Positions 6,001-9,000 of a DNA stretch of 15,985 nt are shown here, piece by piece. The DNA is from Armatimonadota bacterium (GTDB lineage Bacteria > Armatimonadota > Armatimonadia > Armatimonadales > Armatimonadaceae). The position numbers were made by a program. The stretch spans positions 1 through 15,985 of the forward strand of contig JAYUUO010000063.1 in assembly GCA_043754515.1 (NCBI GenBank), given 5' to 3'. Position 1 is the stretch's first letter. Every line of letters starts with the position of its first letter.

Positions 6001-9000
6001 GTCGAAAAACGCGCCCCAGTGCGGCGAATCTTCGATATTGTTCTGGAACTCGCAGATGCCGTTCGCGAGGAGTCGCGCCCGCCGCTTCAGTGCCTCGTCG
6101 CCGCTGGAGAAGAAGCGGTTCAGTAGTGCTTGCGTCGTGAGGGCCGCGTCCGTTTCCGGACCGATAACAAGAAGGTCGGCACGATGCGGCGCGACGCGGA
6201 ATATGTTCTTGTCCGCCCCGCGCTTCTCGATGATGTCGCTCCGGAATATCTCGCGCTCCGACGCCTCGATCACGCGGCGCAGAAACGGGCGCGTATCGGC
6301 GGGGGGCGTTTGCGCGCGGTCTCCGGCGTCCGCGAGGTGCCGTGCCAGCGCGGAGATCGCCTCGGTCTCGGTCTTCGCGTAGGTCAGCCACGTTTCCCAC
6401 CCGAGTACCGTGCCGTTGCCGGACAGGTCGGCATTTTCGAGCGACAGGTAAATGCCGCTACCGTCCGCCGTCACCGTGGGCGTCATTCCCGCGTGTGTTT
6501 GGGTGACCACCGACGCCGCGACGCCATTATTCATTACGACCAGCGCGCGGCCCTCGGCTCCAGGGAGCGAGAGCACCTTCGCCCGCCCCGGCGCGAACGG
6601 CAGCTGGAGACGCACCGCCTCCGGCGAACGGTCTTTCGCTTCCCCGGAGACCGGCATTGCCAGGGCGGGTGCCGTCGCGTTCACACGCCAGAACCAGGTG
6701 AAGCGGTCATCGCGCCCGGTGACGACCACGCCACACCGCACGGCGGCACGCAATGAGGGCGCGGTTTTACGCTTTGCCCCGAGCAACACGCGGTCCCGCT
6801 TTTTGCGAGCGTGCTGGCGTAGGAAAACAGGGAAGTGCTGTCCGCGGCAACGAATTTCGGCGATGGAGCGTAGCGCGGTGGTGTGAAAGACGGGGATCAT
6901 CGTTTTGCCGCGCTGGTAGGCGATGCGGATGCCGAACGTTCCGGGCAAATCTGGCAGGATTTCTAGCACGGTTTTGCTGAACGGGAAGCGGTACGTGGAC
7001 TCGGCGGCGAGCGACAAGTCGGGTTTCGGTTCGGCTTTACGGCGCGGCACGCGGGCGGCGGGCGCGGTTGTGAGCGGCGCGTCCGAGGGCGTTTCTTCTT
7101 CCGCTTCCACCGCGACCATTGCCAGTAGATCATCCCCCGCTTCCTCGCCTTCGTCCGCGACCGTGCTATCGGTCGGCGTAGGACGTGAGAGCGGGAGAAG
7201 TTCGTCGGCCGCGTCTTGTCTGCCAGCTAGCACAGCCTCCGCCGACACCGCGCCCGACTCGAGTCGCGGCAGAGAGGTAACTTTGCGTTTCCTCGCGCCG
7301 TCGCCACCGATCACGAACGTGCTCGCTGTCAGCCCCCCTACTTCGGCGTTGTCTAGTTGCTCGCCGTCGTCGGTGCTCCAAACTTCAGCGTTCGGGTCGG
7401 CGATCAGGGGCTTAGTTTTGGTGGAACGGTTGCGCATAATTTTTGTTGTCGAAATCTATCGCGATTAGTCTCTGCGCTTCGGCAGGAAAAGCGGCGGAAG
7501 GCGGCGAATCATCTACCACGTCTTTTACCCGATTCGTCGGGTTTAAGAGCGCGGGATAGGACGGGATATGCCGCCCCCCGCAGGGCAACGGCCTTAACCG
7601 TCCTTTAGTTTCGGGGGGGGCGTGCCGATAATCGGGTAGTACCGCCGCAAATCAAGGTCATGTCTCTCGCGTTTCGACGCATGGTATCGCAAATTAGGTT
7701 CCTACCGCCTTCGGGCGGCGGTTCGGTTCGGGAAAGGTAAGGTCAACGTGTCCGCACTCGCTTCGCTATTTGGCAAAGAAATTCTGGTCGGTCTCGACAT
7801 AGGCTCGTCCGCCTTGAAGGCGATACAGGTCGAGCCCACTCGGGACGGGTTCCGCGTCGTGCGCGCCGCGCAACAGAAGACCCCGCCCGGCGCGATCCGC
7901 GACGGCGTGGTTCACGACCGCGAAGCCGTGTCCGGCGCGATCCGGCAAATGCTAAAGGTCGCCAACATCACCGCGAACTCCGCCGTGATCGCGGTTTCAG
8001 GACCGACCGTGTTTGTGCGCCAGATCCAGTTGCCAAAGATGACGGATGCCGCCTTAAAGCGGAGCATCCCCTATGAAGCGGGGCGCTTCATCTCCTCCAG
8101 CGTGGAAGACTCGTCCATCGCGTATGAGGTGCTGGGTGCCTCGGATGAGGACCCGAATATACTCGACGTGATGCTGGTCGCCGCGCCACGCGAGATGGTC
8201 GAGTCGCGCATCAATGTGGTGGAACGCGCGGGGCTGGACGTCGTTTCGGCGGATCTCGAATCTTTTTCGCTGATACGGTCTCTGATAGATACACAGCACG
8301 CCCGGTACAACGACGGCAACCTGCGGGCAATCGTGGATATCGGGGCGGGCCACACGGAGGTCACTATCCTGCTCGGGACGCGGTTCCAACTCACACGTGC
8401 CGTCTCGATAGCGGGCGACACGTTCACCGACGCGTTGAAAAACCAGTTGCGGGTGGATACCGCCGAAGCGGAGTCGCGCAAGGCGGAACTCGACCTGAAT
8501 GTCCTGATCAGCGGGAGTGACAACCCTCACGATTATGAGGCACCGCGCGCGGTGCAGAACGTGATTGACGAACTGCTACGGGAGGTACGCCGCTCGATCG
8601 TATTTTATCAGTCGCAACTGCCCGAGGGCACGCCGCAACAGAACATCAGCGAGATGATACTGGCCGGTGGATCCTCCCAGATGATGGGACTCGCGTCCTA
8701 TGTGACCGCGCGCCTCGGGTTCGAGGCGCGCGTCGGCGACCCGTTCGAGAACCCGGGCATTGAGGCGGCACCGGAGGCGATGCAGTGGCTTCGCTCACAG
8801 GCACCCCGGTTGGGTTGTGCCCTGGGTCTCGCGGCGAAGGATTTTATGGCGGGGGTTAAGTGAACGACCTTTACCATGCCTCGCCAAAAAATGCGAATCT
8901 GACCATGCTTCCATGCGGTCAGACAGCGTACATCAGATGGTGCTTGAAAAGCATCCACGAATATTAGTAGAAACTCATGCCAAACATTAACCTGGTCGCC

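What a model noticed while it worked through the whole genome (the two positions that open the first line are those of the whole stretch)
7603..8863. FliA (sigma28) and FlgM kept without flagella; order-wide sigma28-type promoter in front of the type IV pilus pilMNOPQ o [...]
The genome has no flagellar or chemotaxis genes but keeps FliA (g00751, C36:38654-39427) and FlgM (g04875, C303:3465-3860), as do most non-flagellated family members. A sigma28-like promoter, CTYYAGTTT-N11/12-NCCVATAAT (here C63:7603-7632), is conserved upstream of pilM across Armatimonadales. The FliA-FlgM pair appears to have been redirected to the type IV pilus assembly operon.
Evidence so far: Of 32 family genomes: flagellar rod genes 7, FlgM 28, FliA 29; 21 of the 25 rod-less genomes keep both. 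In a phylum sample FlgM is in 10 of 23 flagellin-less genomes. The motif scores 18 bits or more within 400 nt upstream of pilM in 25 of 26 order loci, 15 of which trained the matrix. In this genome pilM is the top site by far, 28.7 bits against 17.4 for the next. The exact pattern hit once each in 9 of 21 genomes, 7 of them at pilM, and the reversed control never. Flagellin leaders of two flagellated relatives have the same layout (CTAAAGATG-N12-TCCCATAAT; CTAAACTT-N12-GCCGATAA; call 41). G012 and G144 keep the motif and FliA but lack the sigma-GGDEF fusion, which favours FliA as the reade [...]
(Added by a program. Inside this text positions count along the whole contig: contig position 1 is position 1 of the stretch shown here. 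"Call 12" and the like, gene names such as g00115 and contig names such as C1 are that model's own, and its searches are not shown. The text may have been shortened before it was handed on; [...] marks where a part breaks off. The agent that wrote the report below was given it as the finding of a first reader that could run no searches.)

Follow-up and report, generated by a model that had tools for sequence, protein, structure and literature searches.

The report
Flagellar sigma factor kept for pili
This bacterium has lost its flagellum but kept the flagellar sigma factor and its inhibitor, probably to switch on pilus-assembly genes; in many relatives the inhibitor's mRNA carries a c-di-GMP-sensing RNA switch, a likely substitute for the usual export-based control.

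Summary
The site is real: window 7603-7632, CTTTAGTTT-N12-GCCGATAAT, 116 nt before pilM. FliA and FlgM look intact; flagellin, FlhA, CheW and MCPs were not found. FliA is the likely reader: a matrix built only from flagellin and flgM leaders picks the pilM site in 49 of 50 order leaders, and in complete flagellated relatives one exact pattern hits fliC, flgM, flgF, pilM, pilB and a pilin. 'Redirected' is wrong: flagellated relatives have the same pilM site, so the pilus arm is older than flagellar loss and is what remains. New here: this FliA belongs to a phylum-wide orphan, WhiG-like clade distinct from flagellar-cluster FliA, and its flgM is led by a c-di-GMP-I riboswitch (22 of 22 sister-family loci, 9 of 20 FlhA-less family genomes) whose 3' end pairs with the ribosome-binding site, predicting c-di-GMP -> FlgM -> sigma28 off. 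This genome and its genus lack the riboswitch, so how FlgM is relieved here stays open. Sigma28 control of pili is known (Rubrobacter, Actinoplanes); a riboswitch-gated FlgM was not found in nine literature searches. All regulation is inferred; no start site was mapped.

The parts
7603..7632 (+). sigma28 (FliA/WhiG)-type promoter: -35 box 7604-7611 (TTTAGTTT), 12-nt spacer, -10 box 7624-7631 (GCCGATAA, identical to the published consensus)
   Evidence: rank 1 genome-wide with joint matrix, 26.4 bits; rank 6 with flagellar-only matrix; consensus from PMC8325347; no sigma70-type match in this leader
7748..8863 (+). pilM
   Evidence: TIGR01175 216 bits, cut-off 133
8977..9657 (+). pilN
   Evidence: PF05137 28.3 bits
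9675..10421 (+). pilO
   Evidence: PF04350 49.5 bits
10455..11336 (+). pilP-position gene, 293 aa, no family match (named by position only)
11459..13996 (+). PilQ-like secretin
   Evidence: PF00263, STN; TIGR02515 below cut-off
14012..14069 (+). GC-rich inverted repeat followed by T7, likely terminator closing the pilM-Q transcript (seen by eye; not listed by the scanner)
   Evidence: sequence printed
14159..14173 (+). sigma54-like -24/-12 match before pilB (one mismatch to the recalled consensus); unverified
   Evidence: RpoN present in G000, below the family cut-off
14252..15979 (+). pilB assembly ATPase with N-terminal MshE-type c-di-GMP-binding motif; no sigma28 site here, although G213 and G119 have one
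   Evidence: TIGR02538 625.7 bits (cut-off 675.65), NF053729 49.7 bits (cut-off 38)
4906..7437 (-). 843-aa protein of no known family, divergent from pilM; homologue beside pilM in 21 of 29 relatives' loci, all family f1

Best explanation
The site is a sigma28 promoter read by the genome's single FliA, which drives pilMNOPQ, its own anti-sigma flgM and a few other genes. This FliA belongs to an orphan, WhiG-like clade of Armatimonadota whose regulon held both late flagellar and type IV pilus genes before this family lost flagella; the pilus arm kept the pair under selection. fliA has a housekeeping-type promoter, so activity is set by FlgM. In most relatives FlgM supply is gated by a c-di-GMP-I riboswitch acting as a translational ON switch: without ligand the aptamer's 3' strand pairs with the ribosome-binding site; with ligand FlgM is made and sigma28 is shut off. 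Release then needs no export, only stopped synthesis plus dilution or proteolysis. Genus g1 (this genome) lost the riboswitch and keeps a bare negative-feedback loop, with an HD-GYP gene placed behind fliA. Shown: sequences, co-occurrence, motif sharing. Inferred: promoter use, switch direction, FlgM turnover.
For: Flagellar-only matrix picks the pilM site in 49 of 50 leaders; -10 matrices correlate r=0.92-0.94. Exact pattern in three complete flagellated genomes: 25 hits vs 1 control, including fliC, flgM, flgF, a FliK-like gene, pilM, pilB, a pilin, an HDOD gene. FliA region 4.2 identical and region 2.4 two residues apart between G000 and flagellated G119/G110. Outside the order, pilM site >=12 bits in 15 of 27 genomes with this FliA clade vs 1 of 12 without; reverse-strand maximum 9.8. 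G079 and G216 lack FliA, FlgM, this pilM and the pilin together. flgM site conserved in 4 of 4 g1 genomes. Riboswitch: Rfam RF01051/RF03167 at 12 of 17, 11 of 20, 8 of 20 and 8 of 20 sources; 22 of 22 f2 flgM loci by nhmmer; 0 of 9 genomes with only the other FliA clade. Aptamer 3' end pairs with its own RBS at mean -11.2 vs -6.4 kcal/mol for fliC/pilM RBSs, stronger in 52 of 54; forcing the aptamer raises RBS accessibility by >0.1 in 27 of 53 and lowers it in 2. FliA-FlgM model score 0.62 vs best control 0.00 (mark reached by 51 of 78 solved and 2 of 108 mismatched pairs; runs agree in >=45% of contacts, partner pLDDT >=54; a like complex, 1RP3, is solved, so the pass may be from memory).
Against: No start site mapped. 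The -35 matrix of pilM correlates only r=0.44-0.61 with fliC/flgM. G000 has no riboswitch anywhere, nor do g1, G185 and 6 of 7 g6 genomes examined. G000's pilin cluster (3.1 bits) and pilB have no site. Eight g6 genomes keep FliA without this pilM, and the pattern is at background in the three tested. 12 of 27 phylum genomes with this FliA clade lack the pilM site. The 12-bit threshold was set after seeing the scores, and kin are not independent. In about 7 of 54 rows the script caught an earlier motif, not the aptamer end; 24 of 53 leaders show no accessibility change. Eight Rfam hits fit the GGC variant best. G026's fliA has an internal stop while its site is intact.
Confidence: 0.72

Rival explanations
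1. FliA-FlgM was newly redirected to the pilus operon after or because of flagellar loss.
For: 22 of 26 FlhA-less family genomes keep both genes; pilM is the top site in G000.
Against: The same site is at pilM in 26 of 27 leaders of the flagellated sister family and in flagellated families f22, f26, f13, f15, f19, f6; pilB and pilin sites occur in flagellated genomes.
Confidence: 0.07
2. Another sigma (RpoD-like or one of two SigB/SigF-like factors) reads the pilM motif, and FliA-FlgM is kept for other targets.
For: pilM -35 differs from flagellin -35; the -10 ends in ATAAT like sigma70 boxes; G000 has eight strong sigma70-family matches; g6 keeps FliA without this pilM.
Against: flgM leaders show -35 forms intermediate between the flagellin and pilM types; site tracks the FliA clade across the phylum; no sigma70-type match in the leader; fliA's own leaders carry a different, TATAAT-type box.
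Confidence: 0.12
3. FliA reads the site, but the riboswitch works the other way (OFF) or is incidental, and FlgM is relieved by proteolysis, partner switching or direct c-di-GMP binding at the FliA-FlgM interface.
For: G000 and its genus lack the riboswitch yet keep the pair; this FliA keeps the K-x3-G-R residues that contact c-di-GMP in WhiG; three g1 FlgMs carry an extra arginine-rich insert; a PAS/degenerate-GGDEF/HD-GYP gene follows fliA in G000, with a homologous N-terminus in the other three g1 genomes.
Against: Anti-RBS pairing is conserved across families, with one compensatory pair in G075; RsiG not found in 5 of 5 genomes, though that search had no working positive control.
Confidence: 0.3

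Closest known systems
WhiG-RsiG-(c-di-GMP) switch of Rubrobacter radiotolerans and WhiG2 clade of Actinomycetota (PMC8325347, PMC12871210, PMC7005675)
   Same: Flagellar-clade sigma outside a flagellar cluster; TAAA/GCCGATAA-type promoters at type IV pilus genes; high c-di-GMP predicted to silence the sigma; a second, cluster-bound paralogue in some genomes; closest solved structures are 6PFV/6PFJ (242.7 bits vs 153.5-167.6 for the proteobacterial-type FliA entries); K57/G61/R62 equivalents kept.
   Different: The anti-sigma is FlgM, not RsiG (FlgM is nearly absent from Actinomycetota per PMC12871210); c-di-GMP input is predicted through an RNA switch on flgM rather than ligand-armed protein binding.
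Canonical FliA/SigD-FlgM checkpoint (Salmonella, Bacillus; Aquifex structure 1RP3)
   Same: Same two families; sigma28 site on flgM and flagellin; predicted contacts on sigma2 and sigma4.
   Different: No export gate in 26 of 32 family genomes; fliA and flgM are stand-alone; regulon includes pilMNOPQ.
Actinoplanes missouriensis WhiG-like sigmas (as cited in PMC8325347, PMC12871210)
   Same: Flagellar and type IV pilus genes under one sigma28-type promoter class, as in family f2.
   Different: No FlgM or RsiG reported there; flagella retained.
c-di-GMP-I (GEMM) riboswitch, RF01051
   Same: Rfam matches of 39-90 bits (cut-off 35); G at the recalled G20 position in 19 of 19 aligned copies.
   Different: Controls an anti-sigma gene; not found reported on flgM. 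In C. difficile such switches sit on the flgB operon and pilA1 (recalled; flgB operon papers seen only as search listings).

Membership tests
FliA/WhiG sigma28 family | TIGR02479 above cut-off; regions 2, 3, 4 | tested here: met
   240.5 bits vs 189.6; Pfam r2, r3, r4
FlgM anti-sigma | PF04316 domain | tested here: met
   34.1-34.9 bits vs 25
FlgM anti-sigma | Binds the cognate sigma28 | tested here: inconclusive
   Model 0.62 vs control 0.00, possibly from likeness to 1RP3; no measurement
Canonical FliA-FlgM flagellar checkpoint | FlgM removed through a flagellar export apparatus | tested here: not met
   FlhA not found; no hit for cluster export/basal-body ORFs other than an ATPase paralogue; genome 92.7% complete
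sigma28 promoter | -10 GCCGATAA | tested here: met
   exact at 7624-7631 (consensus)
sigma28 promoter | -35 TAAA at 15-16 nt | tested here: inconclusive
   TTTA at 16 nt, 2 of 4 differ; intermediate forms at flgM
sigma28 promoter | FliA-dependent start just downstream | not testable with these tools
   only contigs available
WhiG2-RsiG switch | K57/G61/R62 equivalents in sigma region 2.1 | tested here: met
   K-I-T-A-G-R in all 15 order members of this clade aligned; the full K-x3-G-R absent from the cluster-type copies (residues)
WhiG2-RsiG switch | RsiG anti-sigma present | tested here: inconclusive
   0 of 5 genomes with PF22802, but no control genome rang
c-di-GMP-I riboswitch on flgM (relatives) | Rfam gathering score in the leader, sense strand | tested here: met
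c-di-GMP-I riboswitch on flgM (this genome) | Aptamer in the flgM leader | tested here: not met
   no Rfam hit in L006; no nhmmer hit in G000 at E<10
c-di-GMP-I riboswitch on flgM (relatives) | Ligand binding and ligand-dependent expression | not testable with these tools
   only folding estimates

The most novel reading that the evidence does not exclude
Armatimonadota carry a dedicated orphan sigma28-FlgM module in which c-di-GMP sets FlgM through a translational ON riboswitch. It is an RNA-based counterpart of the RsiG-WhiG switch, frees the pair from the flagellar export checkpoint, and explains why FliA and FlgM survive repeated flagellar losses as regulators of type IV pilus assembly.
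Probability: 0.55. Interest if true: 0.85.

Novelty: new variant of a known kind. Interest (0 to 1): 0.72.

Why it matters
FlgM is the textbook anti-sigma that only makes sense with a flagellar export channel. Here it persists, conserved, in many genomes with no such channel, and a concrete, testable alternative input appears: a c-di-GMP riboswitch on its mRNA. This offers a second solution, reached with different parts, to the logic seen in Actinomycetota (c-di-GMP silences a sigma28 that drives pili), bears on where WhiG-like sigmas came from, and gives a first regulon map for a little-studied phylum. It also warns against reading fliA/flgM in metagenome bins as signs of flagella.

Tried and rejected
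Pattern search with the spacer 2 nt too short gave background (5 hits vs 5 control); corrected it gave 15 vs 3. Own-genome RF01051 search and RsiG search had no ringing control and prove nothing; nhmmer was used for the riboswitch. Public runs X1-X3 are contigs with shares 0.05-0.24; short pieces match pilM-Q but show no start, strand or level. Genome-wide scan: only about 5 sites exceed background (>=22 bits: 5 at true spacing, 0-1 at five wrong spacings, 2 with swapped blocks), so most of the 36 listed hits were not accepted; flgM (18.6 bits) rests on conservation, not rank. No sigma28 site at fliA, the second pilM-like operon (-0.3 bits) or any of 40 prepilin-like ORFs (best 11.9). The one hit shared by three g6 genomes overlaps a gene end before a UDP-glucose-dehydrogenase-like ORF (named by eye) and is uninformative. 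The careful tree did not finish; the quick tree has no bootstrap and no outgroup from other phyla, so which FliA clade is ancestral and whether this clade is orthologous to WhiG2 are open. Earlier-findings look-ups returned nothing. Supplements were not read.

Full report
Observation. The window holds pilM (7748-8863), pilN, pilO, a pilP-position gene, a secretin and pilB. At 7603-7632 it reads CTTTAGTTT, 12 nt, GCCGATAAT; the -10 octamer equals the published flagellar consensus GCCGATAA, the -35 is TTTA for TAAA. FliA passes TIGR02479 and FlgM passes PF04316. Flagellin, FlhA, CheW and MCP were not found, and of 56 ORFs from two relatives' flagellar clusters only FliA and 5 apparent generic paralogues hit G000. 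The genome is 92.7% complete. In the family (32 genomes) FlgM is in 29, FliA in 29, flagellin in 5, FlhA in 6; 22 of 26 FlhA-less genomes keep both regulators. In 161 phylum genomes 22 of 74 flagellin-less ones keep FlgM.

The motif is more than chance. I took 50 pilM leaders (23 family f1, 27 sister family f2). A matrix from 7 f1 sites scored >=17.6 bits in 26 of 27 held-out f2 leaders; the best reverse-strand score there was 11.0. With genus g1 left out of training, the window's site ranks first in G000.

Which sigma reads it. Of 30 flagellin loci I used 29 (one cut by a contig end); 21 match TAAA-N15/16-GCCGATAA with <=2 mismatches, none on the reverse strand, and they show the same -10 variants as pilM. 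flgM leaders carry the site too, with -35 forms between the flagellin and pilM types; in G000 it lies at C303:3351 and is kept in 4 of 4 g1 genomes. A matrix from flagellin and flgM leaders alone (four cluster-embedded flgM copies and g1 excluded) picks the pilM site in 49 of 50 leaders and ranks the window's site sixth genome-wide; -10 matrices correlate 0.92-0.94, -35 matrices only 0.44-0.61. One exact pattern gave 25 hits against 1 control in three complete flagellated genomes, among them fliC, flgM, flgF, a FliK-like gene, pilM, pilB, a pilin and an HDOD gene; several other hits had no clear target. These genomes have one FliA, an orphan, whose region 4.2 is identical to G000's. Outside the order I read 39 of 67 pilM leaders: 15 of 27 genomes with this FliA clade (>=51% identity) score >=12 bits against 1 of 12 without (threshold set afterwards, above the reverse-strand maximum of 9.8; kin are not independent). 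G079 and G216 lack FliA, FlgM, this pilM and the pilin together. FliA as reader: about 0.85.

Not a redirection. The site is present in flagellated f2 and in flagellated families f22, f26, f13, f15, f19 and f6. The pilus arm therefore predates flagellar loss. A quick tree of 59 sigma proteins (no bootstrap; G026 left out for its internal stop) puts this FliA in a 38-row clade (SH-aLRT 96) apart from the copies that sit in flagellar clusters. G161-G163 and several other genomes hold both, each with two FlgM matches. The clade's closest solved structures are 6PFV/6PFJ, which by their K57/G61/R62 numbering are the WhiG of PMC7005675, and it keeps those residues. Which clade is ancestral is unresolved.

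Regulon in this genome. About five sites exceed background. Accepted: pilM, flgM, and a matrixin-domain lipoprotein gene (C10:16236, 23.4 bits, site also in G181). Two paralogous small genes (C192, C112) both carry sites (23.3, 20.0 bits) but were not checked in relatives. The three-pilin cluster (C306) and pilB have none, although 8 of 25 pilin leaders read (of 30 loci) score >=15.

How FlgM may be controlled without export. Most orthologous flgM leaders carry a c-di-GMP-I riboswitch between promoter and start codon: Rfam hits in 12 of 17, 11 of 20, 8 of 20 and 8 of 20 sources, 22 of 22 f2 loci by nhmmer, 9 of 20 FlhA-less f1 genomes examined (of 23 with FlgM), four flagellin-less genomes of other families, and 0 of 9 genomes with only the cluster-type FliA. 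The aptamer's 3' strand pairs with its own ribosome-binding site at mean -11.2 kcal/mol against -6.4 for fliC/pilM sites, stronger in 52 of 54; about 7 rows caught the wrong motif copy. Forcing the aptamer raises site accessibility in 27 of 53 leaders, lowers it in 2, and leaves 24 unchanged. This reads as a translational ON switch: c-di-GMP raises FlgM and shuts sigma28, the same direction as RsiG-WhiG (direction about 0.65). Many fliA leaders show TATAAT-type boxes and none a clear sigma28 site, fitting control at FlgM. A FliA-FlgM model scored 0.62 against 0.00 for the best control; the mark was reached by 51 of 78 solved and 2 of 108 mismatched pairs, runs agree in >=45% of contacts, partner pLDDT >=54, and a like complex is solved.

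Against. G000 has no riboswitch; neither do g1, G185 or 6 of 7 g6 genomes examined. In g1 an HD-GYP gene with a degenerate GGDEF follows fliA and three FlgMs carry an insert; these are leads only. Eight g6 genomes keep FliA without this pilM; in G091 fliA sits ahead of a second pilM-like operon and the regulon is unknown. No start site could be mapped.

Comparison. Sigma28-family control of type IV pili is published for Rubrobacter WhiG (PMC8325347, passages) and predicted more widely for Actinomycetota, with a WhiG1/WhiG2 split and near-absence of FlgM (PMC12871210: abstract, first parts of Results and Discussion). PMC7005675, PMC4072686 and PMC12564702 were seen as passages. Nine searches (listings only unless named above) showed no report of a riboswitch on flgM, of FlgM kept for pili, or of this regulon in Armatimonadota; the library lacks most subscription papers and no supplements were read. 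It works like WhiG2-RsiG but is not a member; it uses FliA-FlgM parts but fails the export feature. Verdict: new variant of a known kind, interest 0.72.

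Noticed in passing
pilM leaders of family f2 (L090-L116): A sigma54-like -24/-12 pattern lies upstream of the sigma28 site in 21 of 27 f2 leaders (3 on the reverse strand) but 1 of 23 f1 leaders; RpoN matched in 5 of 5 genomes. 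Suggests dual promoters in flagellated relatives.
   Followed up: partly
G000:C306:17671-19097 (L303, L312): Three tandem pilins. The first has no sigma28 site but a different two-block motif shared by 6 of 25 pilin leaders (G000, G180, G177, G178, G186, G185); G000 has two SigB/SigF-like sigmas that could read it. The pattern has 36 matches in G000.
   Followed up: partly
window 4906-7437 (-): 843-aa protein without family match, divergent from pilM, syntenic in 21 of 29 loci; G182 and G183 have a 20-bit sigma28-type site pointing towards it.
   Followed up: partly
G000:C36:36077-38638 (L242): PAS-PAS-GGDEF(degenerate)-HD-GYP gene right behind fliA in genus g1; other family members have an unrelated 500-560-aa gene there.
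   Followed up: partly
G026:C4:220294-221061 (L297): fliA interrupted by an in-frame stop near codon 128 while pilM site and flgM riboswitch are intact; recent mutation or sequence error.
   Followed up: no
G161:C84 (L295, L296), G163:C921, G162: Compact flagellar cluster with its own FliA (35-39% identical) and FlgM lacking the riboswitch; flagellin leaders score low with the order matrix. Possibly a separately acquired flagellar system in genus g3.
   Followed up: partly
G091:C56 (L299): In genus g6, fliA heads a run ending in a second pilM/N/O/P/secretin-like operon (named by eye and by the pilM match).
   Followed up: no
flagellin leaders L147-L174: Conserved GGA-loop hairpin motif near the start, like a CsrA site (recalled); CsrA/FliW-like cluster ORFs have no hit in G000.
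   Followed up: no
family f7 (G005, G021, G035, G048, G061, G086): All six lack flagellin, keep FlgM and this FliA clade, and carry a further divergent sigma28 paralogue; 3 of 6 loci have the riboswitch.
   Followed up: partly
window 1-5000: Short ORFs resembling RHS-repeat fragments, an ankyrin-repeat gene (3106-3849) and a small immunity-like gene (3971-4531); named by eye.
   Followed up: no
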